Positions 2,786-37,046 of a stretch of 39,359 nt of DNA are shown here, one piece after another (position 1 is the stretch's first letter; the number at the start of each line of letters is the position of its first letter). The stretch comes from an uncultured Erysipelothrix sp. (GTDB lineage: Bacteria; Bacillota_I; Bacilli_A; Erysipelotrichales; Erysipelotrichaceae): contig CAZWPP010000001.1 of NCBI GenBank assembly GCA_964635335.1, positions 1 through 39,359 on the forward strand, read 5' to 3'. A model generated the notes under the pieces. It did not search any database and had not been told where the DNA came from. It worked only from the letters and a program-made list of their open reading frames with translations. The translations under genes and the position numbers were made by a program.

Positions 2786-3980
2786 GATAGAATTATTGGC
2801 ACCTGCAGGTGATTTGGATCGATTAAAAACAGCGGTCTTATTTGGAGCAGATGCGGTTTTTATTGGTGGGAAGCAGTTTTCTTTGAGATCAAGAGCTTCT
2901 AATTTTGATCTAGATACAATTCAACAGGCAGTAAAATTTGCCCATCAACACAACAGTCGTGTTCATGTAACCGTCAATATGATTCCACATCGGGATGATT
3001 TGTTTGGGTTAGATGAATATTTAATTGCTCTTGATACTATTGGAGTTGATGCAATTATTGTTGCTTCTGTGTATATCCTTAAACGGGCAAAAGCTTTAAC
3101 GAAGAACCTCGAGATTCATGTATCAACACAATACTCTATTACAAATTCTAAAACGATTGATTTCTACAAGAAACTTGGTGCAGATCGTGTCGTTCTTGCA
3201 AGAGAAAATACCCTGTCTGAATTAAAACTTCTTAAAGAACAAAGCAGTTTACCTCTGGAAGTTTTTATTCATGGGGGGATGTGTGTGAACTATTCTGGTC
3301 GATGCACACTCAGTAATTACATGACTTTACGAGATGCAAACCGAGGAGGTTGTGCTCAATCTTGTCGTTGGAAATATGAAATATTTGATCAAGATATCGC
3401 AATTAGTGATGAAAAAGTATTATTTTCAATGTCTTCAAAAGATTTAAATGCAATGGATGTCTTACCTGATTTAATTGAGATGGGAATTGCTTCATTAAAA
3501 ATTGAAGGAAGAATGAAGACAGAATACTACATTGCGACGATAGTTAGTGCTTATCGTCGAGCGATTGATGATTTGTATTTAGGAACTCTTGAAAAAGATG
3601 ATGTTGTCTCTGCGGCAAAACGAGAATTACTCAATGCAGAAAATAGAGAAACATTCTCTGGGTTTTACTTGTCTCAACCTAATCGAAGTGGTCACCTCTA
3701 TGGAGTCAATGGAGCGAATGTCAATCAAAACTTTGTAGCTAAAGTGTTGAGTTATGATATAGATACTCATCTTGCGACATTAGAAATACGAAATCACTTT
3801 TCAAAAGATGATGCGTTGGAAGCTTTTGGACCACATTTAAGACCTACATCTTTTGTTTCTACAAAGATGATTAATAGCGAAAATGAGCTAACGAATCGCT
3901 TCTTTAAACCAATGGAAATTGTTACACTTGAAATACCTTTTGTTGTTTCAGAAGGTGATTTCATTAGGAAGACACTATGA
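2778..3980 (+). CDS. Peptidase U32 family protein, YrrO-like, with a predicted [4Fe-4S]-binding Cys motif
   Basis: The track ORF 2670-3980 was trimmed to the ATG at 2778, with RBS AAGAAGGTGG. It starts MNKIELLAPAGD (the typical U32 N-terminus) and has C-x6-C-x15-C-x3-C at 3282-3365. Confidence 0.85.
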   Translation: MNKIELLAPAGDLDRLKTAVLFGADAVFIGGKQFSLRSRASNFDLDTIQQAVKFAHQHNSRVHVTVNMIPHRDDLFGLDEYLIALDTIGVDAIIVASVYILKRAKALTKNLEIHVSTQYSITNSKTIDFYKKLGADRVVLARENTLSELKLLKEQSSLPLEVFIHGGMCVNYSGRCTLSNYMTLRDANRGGCAQSCRWKYEIFDQDIAISDEKVLFSMSSKDLNAMDVLPDLIEMGIASLKIEGRMKTEYYIATIVSAYRRAIDDLYLGTLEKDDVVSAAKRELLNAENRETFSGFYLSQPNRSGHLYGVNGANVNQNFVAKVLSYDIDTHLATLEIRNHFSKDDALEAFGPHLRPTSFVSTKMINSENELTNRFFKPMEIVTLEIPFVVSEGDFIRKTL

Positions 3981-7431: not shown

Positions 7432-7815
7432 ATGAACTTACTATACAAAAAAAATGACGTTGTCGAAGGGATAATTACCAACGTAACTAGTTATGGAGCA
7501 TTCGTTCTAATTGATACCAATACTAGTGGACTTATCCATATCTCTGAGATTACTGGTGGATTCGTAAGTGATATTAATCATTTTGTATCAACCGGTCAAC
7601 GGGTTTTTTGTCGTGTACTTTCGGTGGACGAAGACAAAAATCAACTGAAGTTAACACTGAGGAATGTTTCGAAAAAAACCAGTCCGAGGACTCAGCGAAG
7701 AGAAAGGGTGTTAATGAACAAAAAATCATTAGTTCCATCTTCATCAATTGGATTTAAGTCATTGAAAGAGAAAATGCCAGAATGGATAAAGGAGAAACAA
7801 AATGTTGAAGCTTAG
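7432..7815 (+). CDS. S1 RNA-binding domain protein (YabR / general stress protein 13-like)
   Basis: 127 aa with the S1 motif GIITNVTSYGAFVLI....GLIHISEI. RBS AGAGGTGAAG. Confidence 0.85.
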   Translation: MNLLYKKNDVVEGIITNVTSYGAFVLIDTNTSGLIHISEITGGFVSDINHFVSTGQRVFCRVLSVDEDKNQLKLTLRNVSKKTSPRTQRRERVLMNKKSLVPSSSIGFKSLKEKMPEWIKEKQNVEA

Positions 7816-9076
7816 TTTAGACCATGTATTAATGGATGTTCAATGGGATGATTATCAGTCAAAAGTGAGTGAACTTCATCATCAAATACTGAACAAGACA
7901 GGAAAAGGCAATGACTACTTAGGTTGGGTAGACTGGCCGTTTGAATATGACAAAGAAGAGTTTGTACGCATAAAAAAGGCTGGAGAAAAGATTCGTCAAC
8001 AAGCGGATGTTCTACTTGTATGTGGTATTGGTGGATCGTATTTGGGTTCAAAAGCAGCTGTTGAAATGATTAATGGTCACTATAAAGAAGATGGTTTAGA
8101 GTTGATTTTTGTTGGAAATACTTTTTCATCTACAGAAATCGTTAGAGTTCTTGACTACATCAAAGATAAGGAAGTAGCAATTAATGTTATTTCTAAATCA
8201 GGAAGCACAACCGAAACCGCAATTGCTTTTAGAATCTTCAGACAGTTTGTTGAAGAAAAGTATGGTTTAGAAGAATCCGTTAATAGAATCTATGTTACAA
8301 CTGATAAAGAACGTGGTTTATTAAGACCTTTAGTAAACGAAAGAGGCTATGAATCCTTTATAATTCCCGATGATATCGGTGGGCGTTTTTCTGTCATTAC
8401 CGCTGTTGGTTTACTACCTATTGCTGCTGCAGGAATTAATATTGATGACATGATGAAGGGCTTTATTGATGGTAGGCATGATTTTTCAAAAGAAAAGTTA
8501 GCTGAAAACCCAGCGTATCAATATGCACTGTTACGTCGTTTGTTTCAAGAACAAGGAAAAGATGTTGAACTTTTTGTTACTTATGAACCACATTTAAGTT
8601 TTATTGCTGAATGGTTAAAACAACTAGATGGAGAGTCTGAAGGAAAAGAAGGAAAAGGGTTATTTCCAGCATCGGTTACAAACTCAACCGACTTACACTC
8701 CATGGGTCAATTTGTACAAGAAGGAACAAAGTTATTGTTTGAAACAGTGATTACTACTAAAAATCCTTTAGCTGATATGAATTTTCCAGTTGATGAAACC
8801 AATGCAGATGGGATGAGTTATTTAGAACATAAATCACTTCACTGGGTTAACCAACAAGCAATGCTTGGAACACTCGAAGCACATACTATTGAAGGTGGTG
8901 TACCAAACATTCTAGTGGAACTCGAAGACAATAGTGCATATAGCTTTGGTTACATGGTGTATTTCTTCTTTATGGCTTTAGCGATGACTGCTTATTATTT
9001 AGATGTAAATCCATTTGATCAACCAGGTGTTGAAGTTTATAAGAAGAATATGTTTAAGCGTTTAGGAAAAGAATAA
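7802..9076 (+). CDS. pgi: Glucose-6-phosphate isomerase
   Basis: 424 aa with PGI motifs VCGIGGSYLG, ISKSGSTTET, GGRFSV and QLDGESEGK. Confidence 0.95.
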   Translation: MLKLSLDHVLMDVQWDDYQSKVSELHHQILNKTGKGNDYLGWVDWPFEYDKEEFVRIKKAGEKIRQQADVLLVCGIGGSYLGSKAAVEMINGHYKEDGLELIFVGNTFSSTEIVRVLDYIKDKEVAINVISKSGSTTETAIAFRIFRQFVEEKYGLEESVNRIYVTTDKERGLLRPLVNERGYESFIIPDDIGGRFSVITAVGLLPIAAAGINIDDMMKGFIDGRHDFSKEKLAENPAYQYALLRRLFQEQGKDVELFVTYEPHLSFIAEWLKQLDGESEGKEGKGLFPASVTNSTDLHSMGQFVQEGTKLLFETVITTKNPLADMNFPVDETNADGMSYLEHKSLHWVNQQAMLGTLEAHTIEGGVPNILVELEDNSAYSFGYMVYFFFMALAMTAYYLDVNPFDQPGVEVYKKNMFKRLGKE

Positions 9077-9134: not shown

Positions 9135-10271
9135 CTATTTATTTATTTGAGCACTTGATTGAAGACCTTCAGTCATTGCATATTTTAGTTCCGGAAATTC
9201 TTTCAGAGTTTTGAAATCAGCATGATTGAAGTCTGTATCATTTGACTCATCAATTAACCAAAACACATCAATGTGTTGATCAGGGTTCGTAGCGTTATGA
9301 TCCTTGACAAACTGTTTACCGGTTTCATAGTCCATTAGATAAAGAGCAGTAGAGAATAAGTCCCCAAGCGTTGAATCTTTCGTGTAGATTGTAACACTTC
9401 TAAAATGAAATCCTGGCATATATGTTTCCATATCAATTAAATGAGAAAGACGTCGATTGTTTTCATCTTGATACATTCTTTGATAATCACCTGAAGTTAC
9501 GAGTGAACCACTTTCGCTGATATTGAACAACTCAACATTCTTATCTCTAATTAAAGAGGGATAAGCAATACCAACAACCCAAGGTGAGTTATCTGGTTTG
9601 CTATTAATAACTCGAACGTTGCCACCACCGTTGATAATCCCGTATTTTAGTCCTTTGGCTTCAAGGGTAAGAGCTACTTGTTCGACAGCATATCCTTTAG
9701 CAATGCCCCCCAAATCAATGGAAGCACAAGATTCTGTCAGATATAGGGTATTTTTATCATCATCAATTTCTAAATAATCCCAACTGATACAAGCAGCTGC
9801 TTGATTAAGTTCTTCAGTCGTAGGAACTTTTCCTGGTTCATTGTTTTGATTGAGAAGCATTCCTTCTTCACGATAGTTATGCCAGACTTCTAACAGTGTA
9901 CCAGCAACTGGGTTAAACTTCTTCTTTGTGTACTCATATTCTGACTTTGACAAAAGAAGGACATCAATTAAATTCTGATCAACAACAACGGGTTCAAGCC
10001 CAGCTTTGTCATTGACCATTTTCGCATTATTAACACCTTCATAATCGTTATAGATGTCAAAGATGGCATTGTATTTTGAAAATTCTGATTTCATGAGTTC
10101 AAAGTATTCATTGAACTCAGCTTCATTTTCAGTATAAGCAAGAAGAGTTATCCCTGTATTAAATCCTGAAGTTACCGTTGTGTTTTGATAACGTTGGTAC
10201 TCAGGTTTTTTGTTTGTTTGACAACCTACTAATATGAGTAGTGTCAATATAATTTTTATAGTTTTTTTCAT
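9135..10271 (-). CDS. apbE: FAD:protein FMN transferase (ApbE family), lipoprotein
   Basis: The track ORF was trimmed to MKKTIKIILTLLILVGCQT (lipobox, ATG at 10271). ApbE motifs IDLGGIAKGYA and TSGDYQR. Divergent from rnfC. Confidence 0.9.
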   Translation of the reverse strand: MKKTIKIILTLLILVGCQTNKKPEYQRYQNTTVTSGFNTGITLLAYTENEAEFNEYFELMKSEFSKYNAIFDIYNDYEGVNNAKMVNDKAGLEPVVVDQNLIDVLLLSKSEYEYTKKKFNPVAGTLLEVWHNYREEGMLLNQNNEPGKVPTTEELNQAAACISWDYLEIDDDKNTLYLTESCASIDLGGIAKGYAVEQVALTLEAKGLKYGIINGGGNVRVINSKPDNSPWVVGIAYPSLIRDKNVELFNISESGSLVTSGDYQRMYQDENNRRLSHLIDMETYMPGFHFRSVTIYTKDSTLGDLFSTALYLMDYETGKQFVKDHNATNPDQHIDVFWLIDESNDTDFNHADFKTLKEFPELKYAMTEGLQSSAQINK

Positions 10272-10287
10272 AGTATCACCGAATGTG

Positions 10288-10296
10288 ATTATAGCA
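10288..10296 (-). promoter_or_regulatory. Candidate extended -10 promoter for apbE
   Basis: The minus strand reads TGCTATAAT about 17 nt upstream of the ATG at 10271. I found no convincing -35. Confidence 0.4.
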
Positions 10297-10345
10297 TATT
10301 CCTTGACAATATAATACAAAAAGGTATTTCAAAATAAAGTTAGCG

Positions 10346-10354
10346 TGGTATAAT
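10346..10354 (+). promoter_or_regulatory. Candidate extended -10 promoter for the rnf operon
   Basis: TGGTATAAT at 10346-10354, about 50 nt upstream of the rnfC ATG at 10405. The -35 is weak. Confidence 0.5.
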
Positions 10355-10404
10355 ATTAAAGTGTTGTGGAATGTACAACAAATATAAAGAGGAAGGATGA
10401 GGTT

Positions 10405-11694
10405 ATGTCACTATTATTAGGACCAATGCGTAAGCATATACATGGCTATAAAGAATTGACAGATCATAAACCTGTACTAGTTTGTCCAACACCTGAAGTG
10501 GTAGCTATTCCACTTATGGCAATGGGTAATCCAAATGTCGAGGTCTATGTTCAAGAAGGTGACCGTGTCTTAGTTAATCAAAAGATTGCTAGTCGTAACG
10601 ATCACTTTGTAATCCCACTGTTTTCTTCAGTTTCTGGAACCGTGAAAGGATTTAAAGAAGAATTTCATAGTTGGGGTGGAAGAAAGGCAAAACATATTCT
10701 TATTGAAAATGATGGGAAATACGAAGCTGTTGCGCCAACACCATTAGATGACAAGAAGGCAACAAAAGATGAAATCTGTGAACACATCAAAATGATGGGG
10801 ATTGTTGGTTGTGGGGGAGCAGGTTTCCCAGCTTATATGAAATATCAACCGATGAAACAAACAGATGTGTTGATTATTAATGCTGTAGAATGTGAACCAT
10901 ACTTAACAGGGGACTACATTACTGTTAATTCACATCTCGAAGAATTAGTTCATGGAACAAATATTTTACAAAAAGCAGGGAATTGCTCAAGAGTACTTGT
11001 TTGTATCAAAGAAGATAAAAAAGAATCGATTGCGAAACTAAGAGAAGCTTTCAAAGAATATCCTTCAGTAACAGTTCGTCCAGTTCCTAATGTTTATCCA
11101 ATGGGATGGGAAAGAACACTGGTTTATGAAGTCTTAAAGAAACGATATGATCGTTTACCAAGTGAAGTTGGTGCGATTGTTAACAACTCAACTACAGCAA
11201 TTATGGTTAGTCGTGCCTTTAGAAAAGGGACACCAATCACATCGAAAATTGTTACTGTTTCAGGTAATGGAATCAAAGAACCACAAAACGTTGAAGTTAA
11301 ATTAGGGACACCTCTAAAAGATGTATTGGATACTTGTGGTGGTTTAGTGAGTGATGCAGTTCATGTGTTACATGGTGGACCGATGATGGGTAAAGCAATG
11401 ATTAATGATCAAGTAACTGTCAATTTCACTACAAATGCTTTAACAGTAATTATTGAAGAAAAGATTGATCCAATTGCTTGTTTACGTTGCGGAGCTTGTG
11501 TTGAACACTGTCCAGCTGGTTTAATGCCTGTGAAGATTCAAGATGCAGAAAAAGCGAAAAATTTAGATATGATGGCTAAATTGGATGCGAATTCATGTAT
11601 TGAATGTGGATTGTGTACCTATGTTTGTCCTTCAAAAATTGATGTTACTGAAAATGTTCGTCGTGCAAAAAGTGCACTTCGACTTAGAAATTAG
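10405..11694 (+). CDS. rnfC: Rnf electron transport complex subunit C
   Basis: The track GTG start at 10366 lies only about 12 nt after the -10. The ATG at 10405 has RBS AGGAAGGATGAGG. NADH/FMN site GCGGAGFPAYMKY and two ferredoxin motifs, CLRCGACVEHCP and CIECGLCTYVCP. Confidence 0.95.
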   Translation: MSLLLGPMRKHIHGYKELTDHKPVLVCPTPEVVAIPLMAMGNPNVEVYVQEGDRVLVNQKIASRNDHFVIPLFSSVSGTVKGFKEEFHSWGGRKAKHILIENDGKYEAVAPTPLDDKKATKDEICEHIKMMGIVGCGGAGFPAYMKYQPMKQTDVLIINAVECEPYLTGDYITVNSHLEELVHGTNILQKAGNCSRVLVCIKEDKKESIAKLREAFKEYPSVTVRPVPNVYPMGWERTLVYEVLKKRYDRLPSEVGAIVNNSTTAIMVSRAFRKGTPITSKIVTVSGNGIKEPQNVEVKLGTPLKDVLDTCGGLVSDAVHVLHGGPMMGKAMINDQVTVNFTTNALTVIIEEKIDPIACLRCGACVEHCPAGLMPVKIQDAEKAKNLDMMAKLDANSCIECGLCTYVCPSKIDVTENVRRAKSALRLRN

Positions 11695-11706
11695 GGGGAA
11701 CGAAAA

Positions 11707-13104
11707 ATGAATTTTAAATATCGCGTGTCTCCTAGTATTAAAACCAGAAGAACAACATTACAAATAATGAATGAATTAACTCTAGCGTTACTTGCTGTGT
11801 TAATCTTTACATTAGTTTATTATGGTAGTGCATATGGTATGAACTATGTAGTGCATGCTTTAACACTTCTAGGAGCGTCCTTAGCAACAGCATTCGCAAT
11901 TGAATTTGCTTGGGCAAAATTTTATAAAAAAGATGTCAAGAAATTTCTGTTAAGTAGCTATCCATGGGTAACTGTCTTAATACTATTCTTTACATTATCA
12001 ATCAATACTTCAGTTTATGCTATGGTGATTGGTACTGTGGTAGCAATCGTCTTAGGTAAACTATTATACGGTGGTTTCGGACAAAATATCTTTAACCCTG
12101 CTGCAGTAGGACGTGCAGTTATGTTAACTGCTTTTGGAGCAAGAACGGTTGCTGATATGTCTACGTCAGCTACACCAATCTCAACTGTAAATGCACAAGC
12201 ATGGGCAATCGCACCAGGCGGGTTTGACGTTTTTGTTGAACAATTTGGTGGATTAACAGGACTGTTAACTGGATGGCATCCAGGAGCAATGGGAGAAACA
12301 CCATTTCTTCTCTTATTAGTCATTGGAGTTGTTCTAGCATTTAGAAAAGTCATTGATTGGAGAATTCCAGTCTTCTATATTGGAACAATTTTTGGAATTA
12401 CAACAATCATTTCCTTATTCAGTGGAATGGACTTAACTTATGGGCTATTTCACGTTATAACAGGTGGAGCGATGTTTGCGGCTGTCTTTATGTTAACTGA
12501 CCCAGTAACTTCTCCATTACATCCAGTAGGACGTGCTATCTATGCATCGGGAGCAGGGTTTATTACTGTTTTAATTCGTTTATTAGCAAATACTCCTGGA
12601 GGTGTTTTATTCTCCATACTTATTATGAACATGTTAGTACCATTAATAGATTATCTATTAGCTGGTAATCTAATTAAGGTTCAAAAGAAAGCATTAGGAT
12701 CATTGGCTGTTTTATTAGTTGTCTTTGGTTTAACTAGTATCCTACTTGGTAATACAATGAAAGAAGCAGTTGCTTCAACATTAAAAGATGACAAACTCTT
12801 TATTATTGACCAAAAAGAAGAAGGAACATCAAAAACATATACACTCGAAACAAATGGTTTTGCTAATGGTGTAAACAACGTTGTAACTGTAACAATTACA
12901 GATGGTAAGGTTGACAAAGTTGTCTTTGACAAGAATGTGGACTCTGAAGGATATTCAGATCCAGCAACTAAACCTGAGTTCTTAGATTCCTTTAAGGGAT
13001 TAAGTGATGTATCAGCAGTTGATACTTCAACAGGGGCGACATTCACTTCTAAATCTGTTCAAAAAGCGGTCCAATTAGCTTTGGATGCTTTTGGGGGTAA
13101 ATAG
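11707..13104 (+). CDS. rnfD: Rnf subunit D fused to an extra TM helix and a C-terminal FMN-binding domain
   Basis: 465 aa. The RnfD/NqrB core (GFGQNIFNPAAVGRAV; flavinylation motif DMSTSAT, Thr156 at 12172-12174) ends near aa 322. It is followed by a TM helix (aa 329-348) and a 106-aa domain with DTSTGATFTS (Thr445 at 13039-13041). Confidence 0.9.
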   Translation: MNFKYRVSPSIKTRRTTLQIMNELTLALLAVLIFTLVYYGSAYGMNYVVHALTLLGASLATAFAIEFAWAKFYKKDVKKFLLSSYPWVTVLILFFTLSINTSVYAMVIGTVVAIVLGKLLYGGFGQNIFNPAAVGRAVMLTAFGARTVADMSTSATPISTVNAQAWAIAPGGFDVFVEQFGGLTGLLTGWHPGAMGETPFLLLLVIGVVLAFRKVIDWRIPVFYIGTIFGITTIISLFSGMDLTYGLFHVITGGAMFAAVFMLTDPVTSPLHPVGRAIYASGAGFITVLIRLLANTPGGVLFSILIMNMLVPLIDYLLAGNLIKVQKKALGSLAVLLVVFGLTSILLGNTMKEAVASTLKDDKLFIIDQKEEGTSKTYTLETNGFANGVNNVVTVTITDGKVDKVVFDKNVDSEGYSDPATKPEFLDSFKGLSDVSAVDTSTGATFTSKSVQKAVQLALDAFGGK

Positions 13105-14376
13105 ATGAAAAAAGGAAATAATGTACTTAAATTAACTTTATTTTTAGCAGTGATTGCTGCATTGGCAACAGGATTATTAGCACTTGTTAATCAAATGACA
13201 TATCCAGTTATAGAGGCCAATGCTGGGTCTAAAGAAACCCAAGCGTACAAAGATTTATATCCAGATGCTAAATCAATTGAAAAAGTAGAATTTACCGCAG
13301 ATGCAGATGGACATGTTCTTGAAGCGTATAAGATTGATGATACAGCTTATGCTTTTAAAGCAACTGGACAAGGATATTCTGCACCAATTACATTTATTCT
13401 TGGATACAATGTAGATGGTAGTAACGCAAAATTCAAAATGTTACAAATCAATGATACACCAGGTTATGGTATGAAGTTGAATGAAACAGCATATTCTGAA
13501 GAGTATGCAGGCAAAACTACTTCTGATAGTATTCCTGTTGTCTCTGGAGCAACTGATAGTAGTAATGGTGTAAAAACTGCAGCTAATGCAGTTATCTCTG
13601 TCTTTAATTCCTTAACAGGAAATACAGGTGGACCTGTGGATGAACCTAAAGACGATCGTTTAGTTCTTTCAGAATATACAGAAGGAACAATTGTTGATAA
13701 AAAAGTTGAAGGAAATTTAACAACATTTACTGCAACTGGTGAAGGATTTGAAGGAATTAATAAATTTGATGTTGTTGTCAACACAGAGACCATGAGAGTT
13801 GAAGCGATTACTGTTGTAGAGTTTATTAATAGTGATGATTATGGTACTTCTGCAGGTGAACAAGCTTATTTAGATACATTTATAGGGTTTAGTTTAAAGG
13901 GATCAGAAGTTAAGGCAGATGCTTCAAGTGGAGCGACTGTTGATTCTAAGAGTTTAATGCATGTACTCAATGCGATTGCGATTGATTTAGGTGCAGATAA
14001 ACTTGAACCAGAAAAAGAACCAGAGTTTAAGACTTCAGAATTTACTGATGGTACAGCAACTTTAACCAATGAAGAAGGTTCTCTTTTAACTTTTGAAGCC
14101 ACTGCTGAAGGATTTGAAGGAGACAATACTTTTAAAATTGTTTTAAATATCGATACCAAAACAGTGGACTCAATATCCATTGTCGAATTTGTCAATAGTG
14201 ATGAATATGGAACACCTGCTAGTGAAGAAGCTTATCTTGATTCGTTCAAAGGAATTAGTTTTGCGAGTGGTTCAGCAGGAGTGGATGCTGCATCAGGTGC
14301 AACAGTTGACTCGAAGAGTATCTTTCACGCACTAAATGCTGCTATTGAATTAGCTGTAGAAAAAATTGGAGGTTAA
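13105..14376 (+). CDS. rnfG: Rnf subunit G with three FMN-binding domains
   Basis: 423 aa, about twice my recollection of RnfG size. N-terminal membrane anchor, then SGAT sites at Thr150 (VVSGAT), Thr278 (DASSGAT) and Thr400 (DAASGAT). Domains 2 and 3 are a tandem duplication. Confidence 0.9.
   Translation: MKKGNNVLKLTLFLAVIAALATGLLALVNQMTYPVIEANAGSKETQAYKDLYPDAKSIEKVEFTADADGHVLEAYKIDDTAYAFKATGQGYSAPITFILGYNVDGSNAKFKMLQINDTPGYGMKLNETAYSEEYAGKTTSDSIPVVSGATDSSNGVKTAANAVISVFNSLTGNTGGPVDEPKDDRLVLSEYTEGTIVDKKVEGNLTTFTATGEGFEGINKFDVVVNTETMRVEAITVVEFINSDDYGTSAGEQAYLDTFIGFSLKGSEVKADASSGATVDSKSLMHVLNAIAIDLGADKLEPEKEPEFKTSEFTDGTATLTNEEGSLLTFEATAEGFEGDNTFKIVLNIDTKTVDSISIVEFVNSDEYGTPASEEAYLDSFKGISFASGSAGVDAASGATVDSKSIFHALNAAIELAVEKIGG
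13660..14358 (+). repeat. Intragenic tandem duplication of a ~111-aa FMN-binding module in rnfG (period ~122 aa, including a short linker)
   Basis: Unit 1 is aa 186-296 and unit 2 is aa 308-418. They align colinearly (TF.ATGEGFEG.N.F.vV.N..T..V..I.vVEF.NSD.YGT.A.E.AYLD.F.G......DA.SGATVDSKS..H.LNA). Roughly half the residues are identical, and the DNA is clearly diverged. Confidence 0.85.
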
Positions 14377-14377
14377 T

Positions 14378-15037
14378 ATGAGTCAAAATAAACCGAGCAA
14401 AAAAAGTATCTTGACTGCTGGTTTCTTAAGAGAAAATCCAGTCTTAGTACTAATGATTGGGCTATGTTCAACCTTAGCAATTACAACAAATATTAACAAC
14501 GCTTTGGGAATGGGATTGGCTGTAATTTTTGTTTTAGTGGCTAGTAATGTCATTATTTCTTTGATCAGAAATATTACTCCGAAAGAGATTCGCATTCCTG
14601 TGTATATCGTTGTAATTGCGACACTGGTTAAAGTTGTCGAAATGTTCTTACATGCTTATGTTACATCGTTGTACGATGCTTTAGGAACGTTCTTGGGATT
14701 GATTGTTGTTAACTGTATTATCTTGGGTCGTGCAGAAGCATTCGCTAGTAAGAATGGTCCAGTTGATTCCGCATTAGATGGACTAGGCATGGGAATTGGT
14801 TATTCACTTGTTATTATTTTGATTTCTTTAATCAGACAAGTATTTTCTTCAGGACATTTATCATTGTACAATCCTTTGAATTTAGCACCAATCTTTGATG
14901 TTCAACTAATTCCTGAAGGATTTACAATTAGCACGTTTGCGACACCAGCTGGAGCGTTTATAACGTTTGCTTTAGTTATTGCTGCTTCTGTTGCTTACAC
15001 CAATCATAAAAATGCTAAAGTAAAGGGGGTTAAGTGA
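14378..15037 (+). CDS. rnfE: Rnf subunit E
   Basis: The ATG at 14378 follows GGAGG. RnfE/NqrD motifs include the conserved cysteines in IGLCSTLA and VVNCIILGRAEAFA. Ends in TGA. Confidence 0.95.
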   Translation: MSQNKPSKKSILTAGFLRENPVLVLMIGLCSTLAITTNINNALGMGLAVIFVLVASNVIISLIRNITPKEIRIPVYIVVIATLVKVVEMFLHAYVTSLYDALGTFLGLIVVNCIILGRAEAFASKNGPVDSALDGLGMGIGYSLVIILISLIRQVFSSGHLSLYNPLNLAPIFDVQLIPEGFTISTFATPAGAFITFALVIAASVAYTNHKNAKVKGVK

Positions 15038-15612
15038 TGAGTGAATTATTAACACTAGCTTTCGCAGCTATCTTTATCGAAAACGTTGTTCTTTATAACT
15101 TTTTGGGGATGTGCCCACTTCTTGGAACTACTAAAAAGATGAGCAACGCTATTGGTATGAGCTTAGCGGTAATGTTTGTTATTTTCGGTTCTTCCGTAAT
15201 GACTTACGCAATTTACCACTTCATACTAGTAAATGCAAACATTGTTTATATGGACTTGTTGGTGTTCATCCTAGTTATTGCTGCTTTTGTTCAATTTGTA
15301 GAATTATTTATTAAAAAAACTTCTCCTGCACTTTATAGAGCATTAGGAATCTTCTTACCATTAATCACAACGAACTGTGTTGTATTATTTGTGGCTTTAG
15401 AGAATATAAAGAATGGATTTTCTTGGTCAGAAATGTTAGTATATTCTATAGCAGTTCCAGTTGGATTTATGCTGATTATGGTTATCTTTACCGCTATTCG
15501 TGAACGTCTTGATAGTTCTGAGACTCCAGTTTCATGGAAAGGTGCACCAATTGCTTTAATTACAATGGCTGTTATGGCTATGGCATTTGGTGGTCTTGCA
15601 GGAATCATTTAA
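15037..15612 (+). CDS. rnfA: Rnf subunit A
   Basis: The ATG at 15037 overlaps the rnfE stop (TGATG); the track used the GTG at 15034. RnfA/NqrE motifs ENVVLYNFLGMCPLLG and TTNCVVL. Confidence 0.95.
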   Translation: MSELLTLAFAAIFIENVVLYNFLGMCPLLGTTKKMSNAIGMSLAVMFVIFGSSVMTYAIYHFILVNANIVYMDLLVFILVIAAFVQFVELFIKKTSPALYRALGIFLPLITTNCVVLFVALENIKNGFSWSEMLVYSIAVPVGFMLIMVIFTAIRERLDSSETPVSWKGAPIALITMAVMAMAFGGLAGII

Positions 15613-15773
15613 TGGAACTCCTTATTGCATTAGTTGTCATCTTTACAATCTCTGTTTTTTATAGCTATTCACTTTCTGAAAATGGGTTAACACCTGTACC
15701 AGAAGGATGCTCAGATGCATTAATAGAGTGTAAATCATGTAGTGATATAAGTTGTGATCATCAAGGTCACTAA
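15612..15773 (+). CDS. Small Cys-rich single-pass membrane protein (53 aa) inside the rnf operon
   Basis: The ATG overlaps the rnfA stop (TAATG), with AGGA 8 nt upstream. Sequence is MELLIALVVIFTISVFYSYSL..EGCSDALIECKSCSDISCDHQGH (TM helix plus C-x6-C-x2-C-x4-C and two His). It ends 14 nt before rnfB. Confidence 0.6.
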   Translation: MELLIALVVIFTISVFYSYSLSENGLTPVPEGCSDALIECKSCSDISCDHQGH

Positions 15774-15787
15774 GAAAGGAAGATACT

Positions 15788-16105
15788 ATGAATGAAATTT
15801 TAATTCCTATGGGCATAGTAGGGTTATTAGGAGCAATCCTAGGATTGGTCTTAGCGATAGCATCCCAAGTCTTCTATGTAATGGAAGATCATCGACTAGC
15901 TAGAGTTTCAGAACTTCTACCAGGTTATAACTGTGGTGCTTGTGGTTATCCAGGCTGCGCTGGACTAGCAGAAGCGCTAGTTACCAAAGAAACAAAATCA
16001 GTTAAACTTTGTAAACCAAGCAATCAAGACCAAAGAAATTCTATTGTTGAATTTTTAGCAAATAACGCTGGACCAGATGGAGATACAATTCAAGTACTAG
16101 GATAA
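15788..16105 (+). CDS. rnfB: Rnf subunit B, short form (N-terminal Fe-S domain only)
   Basis: 105 aa. TM helix plus LPGYNCGACGYPGCAGLAEAL...C (C-x2-C-x4-C-x17-C). No CxxCxxCxxxCP ferredoxin repeats. RBS AAAGGAAG. Confidence 0.85.
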   Translation: MNEILIPMGIVGLLGAILGLVLAIASQVFYVMEDHRLARVSELLPGYNCGACGYPGCAGLAEALVTKETKSVKLCKPSNQDQRNSIVEFLANNAGPDGDTIQVLG

Positions 16106-16132
16106 GAATTAACTTCGGTTAATTCTTTTTTT
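16106..16132 (+). terminator. Rho-independent terminator of the rnf operon
   Basis: GAATTAAC-TTCG-GTTAATTC followed by TTTTTTT, immediately after the rnfB stop. Confidence 0.9.
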
Positions 16133-16142
16133 AGTTTATTTT

Positions 16143-16170
16143 AAATAAAAAAAGAACTCAAACGAGTTCC
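16143..16170 (-). terminator. Terminator downstream of tRNA-His
   Basis: The minus strand reads GAACTC-GTTT-GAGTTC followed by TTTTTTTTATTT. Confidence 0.7.
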
Positions 16171-16182
16171 TGAATTTACAAA

Positions 16183-16260
16183 TGGGGTGATCGACGGGAC
16201 TTGAACCCGCGCGTGCCGGAGCCACAACCCGGTGCGTTAACCAACTTCGCCACGACCACC
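16183..16260 (-). tRNA. tRNA-His (anticodon GUG) with encoded G-1 and CCA
   Basis: The reverse complement GGTGGTCGTGGCGAAGTTGGTTAACGCACCGGGTTGTGGCTCCGGCACGCGCGGGTTCAAGTCCCGTCGATCACCCCA folds as a cloverleaf. Anticodon loop TTGTGGC, T-loop GGTTCAAGT, and an extra 5' G pairing with C73 (a His identity feature). Confidence 0.95.
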
Positions 16261-16796: not shown

Positions 16797-16820
16797 AAGA
16801 AAGAAGTGAAGGAGGAGCTC

Positions 16821-18059
16821 ATGAGAAAAGAAATATATGCTACTTTGCAAGTTGCAGATCATGAGATACGAATTTTGGTCGGTGAATTACACAATGGCCG
16901 TTTGTATATTCTAAAAGTTGAACGCGTCCCTCACACCTCTATTGTAAATAACGAAATTGTATCACAAACATCTATTGTCGAAGCTATTAAAAAGGCTCTT
17001 GTCAATATTGAAAAGAATGTAAAAATTAAAGTAACTCGTGTTTTATTAGTTGTTCCTTCGTTTAATTTGCAACGAATTAATCGTTCTCTTCATGTTGATA
17101 TTAATGATCCATTAAATAGGATCCTTAAAGATAATATTGAGAATCTCTATCGTTTAGCACTGAATCAAAAACCAGTAGAGAATATGGAATTAATAAATGC
17201 TGAAATTTATCGTTATAAAGTAAATGGTGTGCATGTCTATAAAGTTCCGCTGAATGAAAAGGCGGGGCGTTTATTTGCTGAAGCAGACCTCTACTATGTC
17301 AATAGAAACATCGTTTATCAACTAGCAAGTATTGTTGAACAATCAGGGTTAGAAATTCTTGATGTTTGTGTTGATCAAATAGCAGTTGGAAAAGAAGCAT
17401 CTCTTTATGATGTAAACAATCAACAATATATTGTTGCTATGCAAGTTGAAAGACAGGCAACAACGTTAGGACTTTTTTATAAAGGCCGTCTGATTCACAG
17501 CGAAATAATCGACGTATCCTTGGAAAAATGGACACAAAAAATAGTTAAGATGTTTGAGATTCCATACGAAGTCGCTGTGAGGTTGATGTTTAATAATATC
17601 GATTTAGACGCTAAGATTGTTCATACTGACCCCATTTGTTTGTGGTCTAAAGAGAAAAAGAACTATACGTGTTCTCAACAAGATTTAATGGATGTTGTTG
17701 GTGAAGACATCAATGAATTTATTGATAAAATTAAAGAAGCATGTCAAGACATCATTTCTACTAATCAAGCTCGATTTGTTCTAGTCGGTGAAGGGTCCAT
17801 GATCAAAGGCATCAGTAATCGTTTAGCGAAAGAATTAAACTGTCAAGTTGACAAGTACTTACCAAGTACATTAGGTGCAAGAGATGGCTCACTAGTCGCT
17901 ATGCTTGGAACTTTCTACAATCATATTGATCACAGAAATTGGCAAGTATACAAACAAGATAGTATTGATGAACACAAAGATTTAGAATTAGTAAAAAATA
18001 AACAAGATGAAAATAACATAACTAAACGATTAAAAACGATTTTTAATCAAAACAAATAG
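16821..18059 (+). CDS. ftsA: Cell division protein FtsA
   Basis: The ATG at 16821 lies 5 nt after GGAGG, whereas the track GTG at 16806 lies inside the RBS. Actin-like ATPase directly upstream of ftsZ, with typical FtsA length and N-terminus (IYATLQVADHEIRILVGE). Confidence 0.9.
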   Translation: MRKEIYATLQVADHEIRILVGELHNGRLYILKVERVPHTSIVNNEIVSQTSIVEAIKKALVNIEKNVKIKVTRVLLVVPSFNLQRINRSLHVDINDPLNRILKDNIENLYRLALNQKPVENMELINAEIYRYKVNGVHVYKVPLNEKAGRLFAEADLYYVNRNIVYQLASIVEQSGLEILDVCVDQIAVGKEASLYDVNNQQYIVAMQVERQATTLGLFYKGRLIHSEIIDVSLEKWTQKIVKMFEIPYEVAVRLMFNNIDLDAKIVHTDPICLWSKEKKNYTCSQQDLMDVVGEDINEFIDKIKEACQDIISTNQARFVLVGEGSMIKGISNRLAKELNCQVDKYLPSTLGARDGSLVAMLGTFYNHIDHRNWQVYKQDSIDEHKDLELVKNKQDENNITKRLKTIFNQNK

Positions 18060-19136: not shown

Positions 19137-19170
19137 AAAAATCTCATCGATAATCGATGAGATTTATTTA
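19137..19170. terminator. Bidirectional terminator between the convergent ftsZ and namA genes
   Basis: ATCTCATCG-ATAAT-CGATGAGAT hairpin (19141-19163) with an A-run before and a T-run after. It overlaps the namA stop codon. Confidence 0.8.
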
Positions 19171-20174
19171 TATGCACGATAATAAGAGAATGGAATCTTG
19201 TCACTCAAATCGTGTTCTTTAAGCATTTCTAGCATGATAAATGGATTTCTTAGTAGCTCTCTACCTGAAGCGACTAAATCGCAGTAACCGTCCTCTAAAG
19301 CGCTAATAAAGAGATTTGAATCATTAATAAGACCAACACCAATAGTAGGGAGACCTACTTTTTCTTTTATTGTTTTAGATAAGCCAAGTTGATATCCATC
19401 CTTAAGTTCGATCTTAGCACTAATGACACCCCCTGAAGAAACATGGACTAAATCTATCTGGTCCTTAACTTCAAGTAATGCATTAGCAACATCTTCAGGT
19501 TTTAGTCCATCTTCATGGTAGTCAGTCGCTGAAACTCGAATCCATAATTCTTTTTCTTTTGGCCAAACACTATGAATCGTGTCTAAAAGCTTTTTCAAGA
19601 ATAGATTTCTATCAATTCCATACTCATCATTTCTTTGGTTCGATAGAGGACTTAAGAACTCATGGATTAAATAACCATGGGCTCCATGCAACTCAACACC
19701 ATCAAAACCAGCTTTATCAGCTCGAATGACTGCTTGCTTAAATGCTTCAAGAATGTCGTTTATTTCTTCTTTAGACATTTCTTTATAAGGCATATATGCT
19801 TGATTTGACTCAACAACTGATGGAGCAAAATGCTCAGTGTTTTTAGTCGTTGATTTGCGACCAGCATGAGATAATTGAATCGCTATTTTTGATCCTTGTT
19901 CGTGAACTGCATCAACAATTTTTTTAAGAGGTTCAATTTGTGAATCATCCCATAAACCTAAATCATTGTCAGTGATTCTACCATTAGGAGTAACACCGGT
20001 AGCCTCAACAATTATTAAACCAACTTGTCCAATTGCTCGTGTAACATAGTGTGCAAAATGAAAGTTAGTCGCAAGTCCATCTTCATTGTGGACTTGGTAC
20101 ATACACATTGGTGCCATTACCAATCTATTTTTAAGTGTCATTGTTCGTAAAGAATAGTCGTTAAATAATTTCAT
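19164..20174 (-). CDS. namA: NADPH dehydrogenase, Old Yellow Enzyme family (YqjM/NamA type)
   Basis: 336 aa. N-terminus LKNRLVMAPMCMYQ plus HGAHGYLIHEFLSP, characteristic of YqjM-class OYEs. RBS AAGGAGGAAAAA. Confidence 0.9.
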   Translation of the reverse strand: MKLFNDYSLRTMTLKNRLVMAPMCMYQVHNEDGLATNFHFAHYVTRAIGQVGLIIVEATGVTPNGRITDNDLGLWDDSQIEPLKKIVDAVHEQGSKIAIQLSHAGRKSTTKNTEHFAPSVVESNQAYMPYKEMSKEEINDILEAFKQAVIRADKAGFDGVELHGAHGYLIHEFLSPLSNQRNDEYGIDRNLFLKKLLDTIHSVWPKEKELWIRVSATDYHEDGLKPEDVANALLEVKDQIDLVHVSSGGVISAKIELKDGYQLGLSKTIKEKVGLPTIGVGLINDSNLFISALEDGYCDLVASGRELLRNPFIMLEMLKEHDLSDKIPFSYYRAYK

Positions 20175-37004: not shown

Positions 37005-37016
37005 CTATGTTAAAAT

Positions 37017-37046
37017 AGACCTATGAAAAATAGGTCTTTTTTATTT
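37017..37046 (+). terminator. Intrinsic terminator between the SBP and permease genes, overlapping the permease start codon
   Basis: AGACCTAT-GAAAA-ATAGGTCT (37017-37037) followed by TTTTTTATTT. The ATG at 37023-37025 sits in the stem/loop junction. Confidence 0.8.

What the first reader, a model, noticed from the sequence alone, without database searches (positions are those of the whole stretch)
9135..16132. Rnf locus rebuilt around extra extracytoplasmic flavin domains: candidate multi-flavin electron conduit
What the sequence shows: a compact rnfC-D-G-E-A-(53 aa ORF)-B operon with its own promoter and terminator, and a divergently transcribed ApbE flavin-transferase that has a lipoprotein signal (LILVGC).

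Established knowledge: Rnf/Nqr complexes carry two covalently bound FMNs, one on RnfD/NqrB and one on RnfG/NqrC. ApbE attaches them on the outer face of the membrane at [S/T]GA[T/S] motifs.

Here I count five such sites:
- RnfD Thr156 (DMSTSAT)
- RnfD C-terminal add-on Thr445 (DTSTGAT)
- RnfG Thr150 (VVSGAT)
- RnfG Thr278 (DASSGAT)
- RnfG Thr400 (DAASGAT)

The three supernumerary domains are paralogous to one another. They recall the two-FMN-domain lipoprotein PplA, flavinylated by the ApbE homologue FmnB, of the Listeria flavin-based extracellular electron transfer pathway.

RnfC (NADH side) and the RnfA/RnfE cysteines are intact. RnfB, however, has lost the ferredoxin-type domains that normally dock ferredoxin.

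Inference: this complex may couple NADH to an extracellular or cell-surface acceptor through a chain of FMNs, or may buffer electrons on those FMNs, instead of or in addition to classical ferredoxin:NAD+ coupling. Multi-flavinylated extracytosolic proteins have been surveyed bioinformatically before. As far as I know, an Rnf core carrying three extra flavin modules together with a minimal RnfB has not been characterised.
Basis: partly seen in the sequence, partly recalled or inferred. Interest (0 to 1): 0.7.

Follow-up and report, generated by a model that had tools for sequence, protein, structure and literature searches.

The report
Rnf complex with extra outward flavin domains
This is a real Rnf membrane electron-transport operon with five predicted covalent-flavin sites facing outward, but the layout is normal for its bacterial family, was already catalogued by bioinformatics, and its short RnfB does not imply loss of ferredoxin coupling.

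Summary
The locus is apbE (divergent, lipoprotein) and rnfC-D-G-E-A-(53-aa ORF)-B. It carries five ApbE-type sites: RnfD T156 and T445, and RnfG T150, T278 and T400. RnfB is 105 aa, with a membrane helix and one [4Fe-4S] domain only.

- The window comes from an uncultured Erysipelotrichaceae bacterium; the nearest genome is an 'Erysipelothrix sp.' MAG with RnfG 97% identical.
- About 30 related species genomes share the layout. RnfD carries 1-2 C-terminal FMN_bind domains and RnfG carries 1-4.
- 109 of the 120 best RnfD homologue clusters carry the RnfD fusion.
- Meheust et al. 2021 already reported multi-flavinylated RnfGs in RNF clusters and proposed the same side path to outside acceptors.
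- A one-cluster RnfB is already characterised. Thermotoga maritima Rnf has a 10.6-kDa RnfB and is a Na+-coupled ferredoxin:NAD+ oxidoreductase.
- Short RnfB also occurs in an rnf operon with no extra flavin domains, so the two features are not a co-evolved rebuild.

Two things were not found in the literature I could search: the RnfD fusion, and the small ORF. The small ORF is a conserved, unnamed one-helix, four-cysteine protein, similar in layout to NqrM and RseC.

Most likely this is a ferredoxin:NAD+ ion pump with a flavin side branch. That function is untested.

The parts
9135..10271 (-). apbE: FAD:protein FMN transferase, a lipoprotein (MKKTIKIILTLLILVGC), transcribed divergently from rnf
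   Evidence: PF02424 E 2e-57. The lipobox LVGC is read from the sequence. The same position is conserved in relatives.
10272..10404 (.). Divergent promoter region. Extended -10 (TGGTATAAT) for rnf, a promoter-like site for apbE on the minus strand, and the RBS GGAAGGATGAGG before rnfC.
   Evidence: Sequence read; minus-strand site listed. These are consensus matches only.
10405..11694 (+). rnfC: NAD(H)/FMN subunit with two [4Fe-4S] motifs (429 aa from the ATG)
   Evidence: RnfC_N, Complex1_51K, SLBB and Fer4 hits; TIGR01945 377 bits. Cys 359/362/365/369 and 398/401/404/408.
11707..13104 (+). rnfD fused to an extra membrane helix and an FMN_bind domain. Core is aa 1-320 with flavinylation Thr156 (codon 12172-12174). 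Extra helix is aa 329-347 (12691-12747). FMN_bind domain is aa 361-460 (12787-13086) with Thr445 (codon 13039-13041).
   Evidence: PF03116 plus PF04205. Alignment to 7zc6_D and 9eri_D. Hydropathy. AlphaFold2 pLDDT 81.5, helix 322-350, beta domain 365-462. Foldseek to RnfD structures, TM-score normalised to the target 0.76-0.83.
13105..14376 (+). rnfG with an N-terminal anchor and three FMN_bind domains. d1 is aa 67-166 (13303-13602, Thr150). d2 is aa 194-293 (13684-13983, Thr278). d3 is aa 317-416 (14053-14352, Thr400).
   Evidence: Pfam. Custom HMM scores 91-101 bits per domain. The AlphaFold2 model shows three repeats joined by low-confidence linkers, with terminal helices starting at T150, T278 and T400. 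Foldseek to RnfG of A. woodii and C. tetanomorphum.
14366..15037 (+). rnfE, with Cys34 and Cys117 for the intramembrane Fe-S centre
   Evidence: PF02508 E 7e-62; NF009070 237 bits. Cys positions.
15034..15612 (+). rnfA, with Cys27 and Cys115
   Evidence: PF02508 E 1e-53; TIGR01943 220 bits. Cys positions.
15612..15773 (+). Conserved unnamed 53-aa protein: one membrane helix followed by N-x5-P-x2-C33-x6-C40-x2-C43-x4-C48. Its ATG overlaps the rnfA stop codon (TAATG).
   Evidence: Present between rnfA and rnfB in nearly all related loci. In a 19-sequence alignment N24, P30 and the four Cys are invariant. No Pfam, NCBIfam or PDB match. Databases name it 'hypothetical protein'.
15788..16105 (+). 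rnfB, short form: membrane helix plus a single [4Fe-4S] FdI domain (C49-x2-C52-x4-C57-x17-C75), with no C-terminal polyferredoxin domain
   Evidence: PF04060 only. Aligns to residues 2-95 of the 333-aa A. woodii RnfB 9eri_B. All 117 homologue clusters found are 77-114 aa.
16104..16134 (+). Intrinsic-terminator-like hairpin (10-bp stem, UUCG loop) followed by U7
   Evidence: RNA fold -9 kcal/mol, z -3.1. The consensus scan missed it because the stem is A+T-rich.

Best explanation
This is the Rnf complex typical of Erysipelotrichaceae.

Shown by sequence, homology and modelling:
- All six canonical subunits have their cofactor ligands intact.
- A lipoprotein ApbE is available to flavinylate sites on the outer face.
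- RnfB is the short, one-cluster form (helix plus FdI), as in Thermotoga maritima.
- Four outward-facing FMN_bind domains are present: the canonical RnfG d1, two extra domains strung on RnfG, and one tethered to RnfD by an added membrane helix.
- With the RnfD core site this gives five predicted covalent FMNs.

Inferred:
- The core still works as a reversible, ion-translocating ferredoxin (or flavodoxin):NAD+ oxidoreductase. Electrons would pass from the RnfB FdI cluster to the RnfA/E Fe-S centre, then RnfG d1 FMN, RnfD FMN, RnfD riboflavin, RnfC, and finally NAD+.
- The supernumerary FMN domains tap the two outer-face flavins and pass electrons to extracytosolic acceptors. The membrane-proximal RnfD domain would act first and the two distal RnfG domains would act as beads on flexible Pro/Glu/Lys linkers.
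- The acceptors are most plausibly flavinylated flavin reductases or soluble or cell-wall oxidants. This would let either NADH or reduced ferredoxin be dumped outside the cell.
- The 53-aa four-Cys membrane protein is an accessory factor or seventh subunit that binds Fe or an Fe-S cluster next to RnfB and RnfA/E. This would be analogous to NqrM (maturation of the NqrD/E centre) or to RseC/RnfF.
For: Identity of the parts.

Outward topology: the RnfD core C-terminus is cytoplasmic in 7ZC6 (PMC9588780), and one extra helix follows it. RnfG has a single N-terminal anchor.

Selection on the extra flavin sites:
- The terminal Thr/Ser of x-G/S-A-T is kept in almost every extra domain across loci whose RnfG is about 27-46% identical to the window's.
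- Domain numbers vary by repeated lineage-specific duplication: window d2-d3 55% identical, L003 RnfD C-terminal domain to d2 58%, L016 d3 = d4 100%.
- 109 of the 120 best RnfD homologue clusters carry 1-3 such domains.

Ferredoxin coupling with a short RnfB: T. maritima Rnf (PMC7414866; PMC9588780).

Side-branch idea:
- Proposed for multi-flavinylated RnfG by Meheust et al. (PMC8238504).
- A multi-FMN protein has E0' of -184 mV and flexible linkers (PMC10339131).
- One relative encodes a TAT-signal FMN_bind + FAD_binding_2 reductase next to apbE-rnf (L041).
- Erysipelotrichaceae carry large sets of extracytosolic flavin reductases (bioRxiv 10.1101/2022.12.26.521950).

Small ORF:
- Synteny and invariant Cys residues.
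- NqrM is a small membrane-bound Fe-S maturation factor for NQR (PMC12174285).
- RseC has CX5CX2CX5C, binds an Fe-S cluster and interacts with RsxB and RsxD (PMC11729352).
Against: - No biochemical data exist for any member of this clade.
- No acceptor gene lies in the window, which is otherwise housekeeping.
- The reductase neighbour was seen in one locus only.
- The operon sits at a conserved core-genome position between pgi and ftsA/ftsZ. That fits a basic housekeeping role, and the extra domains could serve an internal role.
- The presence of ferredoxin or PFOR in this genome could not be checked.
- The small ORF has no significant match to NqrM, RseC or any other family.
- The orientation of the small ORF is ambiguous in the window's copy, which has no basic residues after the helix.
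- At least one lineage has short RnfB without the small ORF (L040).
Confidence: 0.5

Rival explanations
1. The complex has given up ferredoxin coupling because RnfB is minimal. It works mainly as a one-way NADH-to-extracellular-acceptor conduit through a chain of FMNs, as a Listeria-like EET system built on Rnf.
For: - RnfB lacks the C-terminal polyferredoxin domain.
- There are five outward flavin sites and a lipoprotein ApbE.
- Nqr/Rnf-like two-subunit systems are proposed to carry electrons one way from NAD(P)H to the outside (PMC8238504).
Against: - T. maritima Rnf has the same one-cluster RnfB and is a ferredoxin:NAD+ Na+ pump.
- RnfA, RnfE and RnfB, which an NADH-to-outside path would not need, are all kept with intact Cys ligands in every relative.
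- Short RnfB also occurs with a plain RnfD and RnfG (L010).
- No ndh2, eetA/B, dmk or pplA genes are in the window.
- The PplA model is not met.
Confidence: 0.1
2. The extra FMN domains have an internal role and no dedicated external acceptor. They might act as additional shuttles or an electron buffer between the RnfA/E centre, RnfG FMN and RnfD FMN. Alternatively they might be a safety valve that passes excess electrons to O2 or other adventitious oxidants.
For: - The RnfD-tethered domain sits only about 12 residues after its membrane helix, next to the RnfD and RnfG flavins.
- The operon is in a conserved housekeeping context with no acceptor gene nearby.
- A reduced multi-FMN protein reacts with O2, and its flavins share one potential, so it shows no directionality (PMC10339131).
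Against: - Canonical Rnf and Nqr need no such domains.
- Domain number varies from 1 to 4 on RnfG and 1 to 3 on RnfD. The domains are joined by long flexible linkers, which looks like reach rather than a fixed internal relay.
- One relative has a flavinylated reductase gene next to the cluster.
Confidence: 0.25
3. The appendages work in reverse as an electron intake. Reduced extracellular flavins, humics or partner-derived electrons would enter through the outer FMN domains and be used by Rnf to reduce NAD+, or ferredoxin with the help of the ion gradient.
For: - Rnf is reversible (PMC12174285).
- FMN domains at about -184 mV lie between typical donors and acceptors.
- The nearest genome record is an environmental MAG. 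That such samples offer syntrophic electron exchange is my own assumption, not tested here.
Against: - There is no direct evidence.
- Moving electrons from about -184 mV to NAD+ (-320 mV) is uphill and would consume the ion gradient.
- No uptake-related genes are nearby.
Confidence: 0.08

Closest known systems
Canonical Rnf complexes with solved structures (Clostridium tetanomorphum 7ZC6, Acetobacterium woodii 9ERI, Azotobacter vinelandii 8AHX)
   Same: - Same six subunits and the gene order rnfCDGEAB.
- The RnfD core aligns over its whole length, and the flavinylated Thr aligns too.
- RnfG d1, the RnfA/E Cys pairs, the RnfC cofactor motifs, and the RnfB membrane helix plus FdI domain all match.
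   Different: - RnfB lacks the C-terminal domain of 2-7 clusters.
- RnfD has an added membrane helix and an outward FMN_bind domain.
- RnfG has two extra FMN_bind domains.
- An extra 53-aa four-Cys membrane protein is encoded between rnfA and rnfB.
Thermotoga maritima Rnf (Kuhns et al. 2020, PMC7414866)
   Same: RnfB is about 10.6 kDa with a single predicted [4Fe-4S] (FdI only), and the gene order is rnfCDGEAB. The purified enzyme is a Na+-dependent ferredoxin:NAD+ oxidoreductase, which shows that a minimal RnfB is compatible with classical activity.
   Different: [quoted passage not shown] Whether it has the small four-Cys ORF was not checked here.
Multi-flavinylated RnfG / RNF clusters catalogued by Meheust et al. 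2021 (eLife, PMC8238504)
   Same: An RNF gene cluster with ApbE and an RnfG carrying more than one FMN_bind domain. The same hypothesis of a second electron path to alternative extracytosolic acceptors.
   Different: That paper does not describe the RnfD C-terminal FMN_bind fusion, the short RnfB or the small four-Cys ORF in the text I could search. None of these complexes has been studied experimentally.
Listeria monocytogenes flavin-based EET (FmnB/ApbE, PplA, Ndh2, EetA/B, DmkA)
   Same: A lipoprotein ApbE-type flavin transferase, and an extracytosolic protein with several FMN_bind domains proposed to hand electrons to outside acceptors.
   Different: - Electron input here would come from Rnf, not from Ndh2 and a quinone.
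- The flavin domains are parts of RnfG and RnfD, not a lipoprotein.
- The NCBIfam PplA model scores 16.5 bits against a cut-off of 325.
- No EET genes are in the window.
NqrM (DUF539) of Na+-NQR, and RseC/RnfF of Rsx/Rnf
   Same: These are small membrane proteins with a cluster of conserved cysteines, genetically tied to Nqr or Rnf. NqrM is a small membrane-bound Fe-S maturation protein thought to be needed to insert the intramembrane NqrD/E cluster; that it has one helix and four Cys is from my own recollection of Kostyrko et al. 2016, which was not held. RseC has CX5CX2CX5C, binds an O2-sensitive Fe-S cluster and interacts with RsxB and RsxD. The window ORF has one helix followed by C-x6-C-x2-C-x4-C.
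   Different: - There is no detectable sequence similarity to either family.
- In RseC the Cys motif precedes two membrane helices, whereas here it follows a single helix.
- Function and orientation are untested.
Methanosarcina acetivorans Rnf with the multi-haem cytochrome MmcA
   Same: An Rnf complex with an added multi-cofactor extracytoplasmic module. Meheust et al. cite a multi-haem cytochrome-based bifurcated transfer suggested for a methanogen RNF, and Gupta et al. 2024 is listed by title only. That the module is MmcA of M. acetivorans is my own knowledge.
   Different: The cofactors there are c-type haems on a separate protein, not covalent FMNs on RnfG and RnfD.

Membership tests
Rnf complex (RnfCDGEAB ion-translocating ferredoxin:NAD+ oxidoreductase) | All six subunit genes in one operon | tested here: met
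   Pfam and NCBIfam hits for C, D, G, E, A and B in the order CDGEAB.
Rnf complex (RnfCDGEAB ion-translocating ferredoxin:NAD+ oxidoreductase) | RnfD covalent-FMN threonine in the outer-face loop | tested here: met
   T156 in STSAT aligns with the TTAT motif of 7zc6_D; Thr153 of that protein is the flavinylated residue (PMC9588780). It is nearly invariant in a 57-sequence alignment.
Rnf complex (RnfCDGEAB ion-translocating ferredoxin:NAD+ oxidoreductase) | RnfG: N-terminal anchor plus an FMN_bind domain with an SGAT threonine | tested here: met
   d1 scores 44.4 bits. T150 sits at the start of the terminal helix. Foldseek to 9eri_G and 7zc6_G.
Rnf complex (RnfCDGEAB ion-translocating ferredoxin:NAD+ oxidoreductase) | Two Cys each in RnfA and RnfE for the intramembrane Fe-S centre | tested here: met
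   RnfE C34 and C117; RnfA C27 and C115.
Rnf complex (RnfCDGEAB ion-translocating ferredoxin:NAD+ oxidoreductase) | RnfB membrane helix plus an FdI [4Fe-4S] domain | tested here: met
   PF04060; Cx2Cx4Cx17C; aligns to 9eri_B residues 2-95.
Rnf complex (RnfCDGEAB ion-translocating ferredoxin:NAD+ oxidoreductase) | RnfB C-terminal polyferredoxin domain (2-7 clusters) that docks ferredoxin | tested here: not met
   The protein ends at residue 105. This is not a strictly defining feature, because the active T. maritima enzyme also lacks it.
Rnf complex (RnfCDGEAB ion-translocating ferredoxin:NAD+ oxidoreductase) | Ferredoxin:NAD+ oxidoreductase activity coupled to Na+/H+ transport | not testable with these tools
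   Needs membranes or purified enzyme.
Multi-flavinylated extracytosolic proteins / multi-flavinylated RNF clusters (Meheust et al. 2021) | More than one FMN_bind domain with a flavinylation motif in an extracytosolic protein, with ApbE in the cluster | tested here: met
   RnfG has three domains, and RnfD has its core site plus one domain. ApbE is adjacent. Outward topology is inferred.
Multi-flavinylated extracytosolic proteins / multi-flavinylated RNF clusters (Meheust et al. 2021) | Actual covalent FMN at each site | not testable with these tools
   Needs UV-fluorescent SDS-PAGE bands or intact mass (+438 Da per FMN).
Listeria-type flavin-based EET (PplA/FmnB/Ndh2/EetAB/DmkA) | A PplA-family lipoprotein | tested here: not met
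   NF041941 scores 16.5 bits against a cut-off of 325, and only on the RnfD C-terminal domain. RnfG has a membrane-helix anchor, not a lipobox.
Listeria-type flavin-based EET (PplA/FmnB/Ndh2/EetAB/DmkA) | ndh2, eetA, eetB and dmkA/B in the locus | tested here: not met
   None among the window ORFs of 100 aa or more that were scanned against Pfam. The rest of the genome was not searchable.
NqrM (PF04400) / RseC_MucC (PF04246) | Sequence match to the family model | tested here: not met
   No hit for any of 19 orthologues even at E up to 10. The only weak hits were FeoB_associated (3 of 19, best E 3e-4) and Fer2 (1 of 19, 19.7 bits against a cut-off of 21).
NqrM (PF04400) / RseC_MucC (PF04246) | Small membrane protein with conserved Cys residues encoded with the nqr/rnf genes | tested here: met
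   One helix plus four invariant Cys. The gene always lies between rnfA and rnfB. This is a resemblance in architecture, not proof of membership.

The most novel reading that the evidence does not exclude
Erysipelotrichaceae and their relatives run a quinone-independent respiratory-like chain. In it, an Rnf pump hands electrons directly, through FMN domains fused to RnfD and RnfG, to extracytosolic flavin reductases or other outside acceptors. These Rnf complexes would also contain a previously unrecognised seventh component: the conserved one-helix, four-Cys protein encoded between rnfA and rnfB. It would bind Fe or an Fe-S cluster and serve either as the docking or entry site next to the one-cluster RnfB, or as the Rnf counterpart of NqrM.
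Probability: 0.3. Interest if true: 0.7.

Novelty: new variant of a known kind. Interest (0 to 1): 0.42.

Why it matters
If the side branch is real, Rnf would be more than a closed ferredoxin/NAD+ loop. It would be a direct, ion-pumping feeder of electrons to the cell surface in a large family of gut and anaerobic-digester Firmicutes.

That could explain how bacteria without an obvious quinone chain power their many extracytosolic flavin reductases.

The locus and its cultured relatives (for example Bulleidia sp. zg-1006) give a compact system to test whether strings of covalent flavins carry electrons over distance the way multi-haem cytochromes do.

The small four-Cys protein is a cheap, testable candidate for a missing Rnf assembly factor or subunit.

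As it stands, the main idea is already in the literature as a bioinformatic hypothesis, and this locus is one ordinary member of that class.

Tried and rejected
- PplA membership: rejected. The NCBIfam model scores 16.5 bits against a cut-off of 325.
- Homology of the small ORF to NqrM, RseC or any Pfam/PDB family: nothing significant in 19 orthologues or in a profile search. I keep this only as an analogy.
- phmmer of the 53-aa ORF against 1.8 billion representatives: only five true small homologues, the other hits being spurious matches in long repetitive proteins. Synteny was far more informative.
- 'Short RnfB and the extra flavin domains evolved together': rejected. L010 has short RnfB and the small ORF with a plain RnfD and RnfG. 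L009 and L028-L036 have a single-domain RnfG.
- 'The small ORF always accompanies short RnfB': not strictly true. L040 lacks it.
- Apparent loss of the flavinylation motif in some extra domains: this was an artefact of my narrow regular expression. Those sites read AGAT, ASAT, NGAT, NSAT or VGAT and keep the Thr.
- Meheust supplementary tables searched for Erysipelotrichaceae entries: nothing in the text that is held.
- The NqrM paper (PMC4751810) is not held. My description of NqrM rests on the RNF/NQR review and on my own recollection of its abstract.
- A second, long rnfB, or ferredoxin, PFOR and EET genes elsewhere in the genome: could not be tested.
- The AlphaFold2 tool returns no coordinates, so flavin-to-flavin distances could not be measured. 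Multimer modelling was not available.

Full report
**What is there.** apbE lies on the minus strand at 9135-10271. On the plus strand lie rnfC (10405-11694), rnfD (11707-13104, 465 aa), rnfG (13105-14376, 423 aa), rnfE (14366-15037) and rnfA (15034-15612). A 53-aa ORF follows at 15612-15773, with its ATG overlapping the rnfA stop codon. Then comes rnfB (15788-16105, 105 aa).

Pfam and NCBIfam assign every subunit. RnfD carries PF03116 over residues 6-319 plus an FMN_bind domain at 393-460. RnfB matches only PF04060, which covers the first ~100 positions of RnfB models that are 190-290 positions long. The 53-aa ORF matches nothing.

An extended -10 element (TGGTATAAT) precedes rnfC. A 10-bp hairpin with a UUCG loop and U7 follows rnfB (-9 kcal/mol, z -3.1). 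tRNA-His lies convergently just downstream.

**The five flavin sites.** The positions are exactly as stated: RnfD T156 and T445, and RnfG T150, T278 and T400.
- Scanned on their own, RnfG d1, RnfG d3 and the RnfD C-terminal domain pass the Pfam FMN_bind cut-off of 22 bits, with 44.4, 29.4 and 40.3 bits. RnfG d2 does not, at 16.5 bits.
- However, d2 is 55% identical to d3.
- In an AlphaFold2 model of RnfG (pLDDT 76.8), all three units have the same four-to-five-stranded sheet plus a long terminal helix. That helix begins exactly at T150, T278 or T400. The units are joined by linkers with pLDDT below 50, giving a beads-on-a-string arrangement.
- The RnfD model (pLDDT 81.5) shows the RnfD core, an added helix at 322-350, a disordered linker, and a beta domain whose terminal helix starts right after T445.
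- The models match solved RnfD and RnfG chains.

The extra domains form one paralogous class. The RnfD C-terminal domain is 34% identical to RnfG d2 and d3, while all three are only 18-28% identical to the canonical RnfG d1.

**Topology.** RnfG has a single N-terminal hydrophobic segment, so everything after it lies outside, as in canonical RnfG. The RnfD core (residues 7-319) aligns with 7zc6_D residues 11-302 of 310. In that structure the last ~10 residues are cytoplasmic (PMC9588780). The extension begins with KVQKK, crosses the membrane once through the most hydrophobic segment in the protein (329-347, Kyte-Doolittle 2.47), and so places the FMN_bind domain outside. ApbE has a lipobox (LVGC). 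All five sites are therefore predicted to face outward. This rests on homology and hydropathy, not on experiment.

**Origin and how common the layout is.** The nearest genome record is a MAG named Erysipelothrix sp. isolate AS07pgkLD_216, with RnfG 97% identical. Nearly all of the 29 related loci in the species-representative genome set are MAGs labelled Erysipelotrichaceae, Erysipelothrix or Holdemania; a few carry broader or different labels (Bacillota, Firmicutes, Clostridia, Muribaculaceae).

Their operons have the same plan:
- apbE next to the operon.
- RnfD of 450-612 aa with one or two C-terminal FMN_bind domains.
- RnfG with one to four FMN_bind domains.
- A 49-72-aa ORF.
- An RnfB of about 100 aa.

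In many loci the operon sits between pgi and ftsA/ftsZ. Among the 120 best RnfD homologue clusters in the 5.8-billion-protein set, 109 carry one to three such domains (85, 20 and 4 clusters respectively). Named examples include Bulleidia sp. zg-1006. All 117 RnfB homologue clusters retrieved are 77-114 aa. A Clostridia outgroup locus has an ordinary RnfD (329 aa), a long RnfB (263 aa) and no small ORF (L038).

Extra domains are often most similar to another extra domain of the same genome. Examples are L003 RnfD C-terminal domain to RnfG d2 at 58%, L004 d2-d3 at 74%, and L016 d3 = d4 at 100%. Their number has therefore changed repeatedly by local duplication. The flavinylated Thr/Ser is kept almost everywhere. 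Both points argue that the flavins are functional and under selection.

**Why the interpretation needs correcting.**

First, the minimal RnfB is not tied to the extra flavins. A 'Mollicutes bacterium' locus has short RnfB and the small ORF together with a plain RnfD (374 aa) and a single-domain RnfG (L010). Many Erysipelotrichaceae also have a single-domain RnfG.

Second, a one-cluster RnfB is already characterised. T. maritima RnfB is 10.56 kDa with one predicted [4Fe-4S]. The purified complex still accepts clostridial ferredoxin, is Na+-dependent and pumps Na+ (PMC7414866). The C. tetanomorphum structure paper makes the same point about the FdI-only RnfB. Loss of the polyferredoxin domain is therefore no evidence for loss of ferredoxin coupling. 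RnfA, RnfE and RnfB keep all their ligands here.

Third, the central idea is published. Meheust et al. [quoted passage not shown] Multi-FMN proteins have since been shown to be flavinylated, to sit at about -184 mV and to have flexible linkers (PMC10339131).

Fourth, the PplA likeness is only at the domain level. The window, otherwise made of housekeeping and glycolytic genes, holds no EET genes.

**What may be new.** I found no description of the RnfD-FMN_bind fusion in the literature I could search.

The 53-aa ORF is a real, conserved gene.
- Nearly all related loci have it in the same place, including two loci where gene callers missed it or mis-called it.
- Nineteen orthologues, 19-51% identical to the window's copy, keep one membrane helix followed by N-x-[KR]-T-P-x-P-x-G-C-x6-C-x2-C-x4-C. 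N24, P30 and all four Cys are invariant.
- Databases call it 'hypothetical protein'. It matches no Pfam, NCBIfam or PDB family.
- The only weak hints are to FeoB-associated Cys-rich membrane proteins and to the Cys region of plant-type [2Fe-2S] ferredoxins.

Its architecture recalls two known proteins. NqrM is the small membrane-bound factor needed to build the intramembrane NqrD/E Fe-S centre (PMC12174285; the one-helix, four-Cys detail is from my own recollection of Kostyrko et al. 2016). RseC/RnfF has a CX5CX2CX5C motif, binds an O2-sensitive Fe-S cluster and interacts with RsxB and RsxD (PMC11729352). This is an analogy, not demonstrated homology. One lineage with short RnfB lacks the small ORF (L040).

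**Most likely mechanism.** The identity of the parts is shown; the rest is inferred. The core probably remains a reversible ion-translocating ferredoxin (or flavodoxin):NAD+ oxidoreductase of the T. maritima type.

The membrane-proximal RnfD domain and the two distal RnfG domains probably take electrons from the two outer-face flavins and pass them to extracytosolic acceptors. Context gives limited support for this. One relative encodes a TAT-signal FMN_bind + FAD_binding_2 reductase beside apbE-rnf (L041). Another has a separate 369-aa FMN_bind gene between rnfD and rnfG (L040). Erysipelotrichaceae are also known for large sets of secreted flavin reductases.

An internal buffering or safety-valve role, or inward electron flow, cannot be excluded.

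**Verdict.** This is a typical member of a clade-wide, already catalogued but biochemically untested class of multi-flavinylated Rnf complexes. The RnfD fusion and the four-Cys small protein are undescribed variations. Interest is moderate.

Noticed in passing
window 15612-15773 (+); also L001 10146-10325, L009 9829-10008, L010 9795-10001, L041 ~7790-8000, L042 ~7810-7985: A conserved, unnamed 49-72-aa protein is encoded between rnfA and rnfB. It has one membrane helix followed by N-x-[KR]-T-P-x-P-x-G-C-x6-C-x2-C-x4-C. It matches no known family and is annotated 'hypothetical protein'. It may be an Rnf accessory factor similar in layout to NqrM or RseC.
   Followed up: partly
L041 1-1290 (GCA_965350925.1): In one relative, a TAT-signal protein with FMN_bind and FAD_binding_2 domains (a fumarate-reductase-like extracytosolic flavin reductase) lies next to apbE and the rnf operon. 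It is a possible acceptor for the extra flavin domains.
   Followed up: no
L040 5124-6233 (GCA_964422445.1, 'Bacilli bacterium'): In this lineage the extra FMN-binding module is a separate 369-aa membrane-anchored gene between rnfD and rnfG. RnfD is unfused, and short RnfB follows rnfA directly with no small ORF.
   Followed up: partly
window 16152-16259 (-): tRNA-His (GTG) has its own terminator-like hairpin at 16171-16152. It is convergent with the rnf terminator, so the 16106-16182 spacer holds two back-to-back terminators.
   Followed up: no
window 1871-3980 (+): Two adjacent genes of peptidase family U32 (304 aa and 436 aa, the second with the U32 C-terminal domain). This is a pairing of the kind linked in other bacteria to O2-independent hydroxylation reactions. 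Their function here is unknown.
   Followed up: no
window 19164-20174 (-): An Old-Yellow-Enzyme-type NADH:flavin oxidoreductase (PF00724, E 8e-76) lies downstream of ftsZ. It is at the same position in several relatives (L001, L006-L008).
   Followed up: no
window 16806-18059 (+): A 417-aa protein sits upstream of ftsZ at the position of ftsA. It has no Pfam hit at E 1e-3, and the same is true of its 412-425-aa counterparts in relatives. It is probably a divergent FtsA.
   Followed up: no
window 36108-37784 (+): Two consecutive ORFs (298 aa and 253 aa) after thrS have no Pfam match.
   Followed up: no
L008 1348-5229 (GCA_001513565.1): In this close relative's assembly, rnfC and rnfG are each split into two called genes (275 + 115 aa and 161 + 246 aa). 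This is probably frameshifts or assembly errors rather than biology.
   Followed up: no
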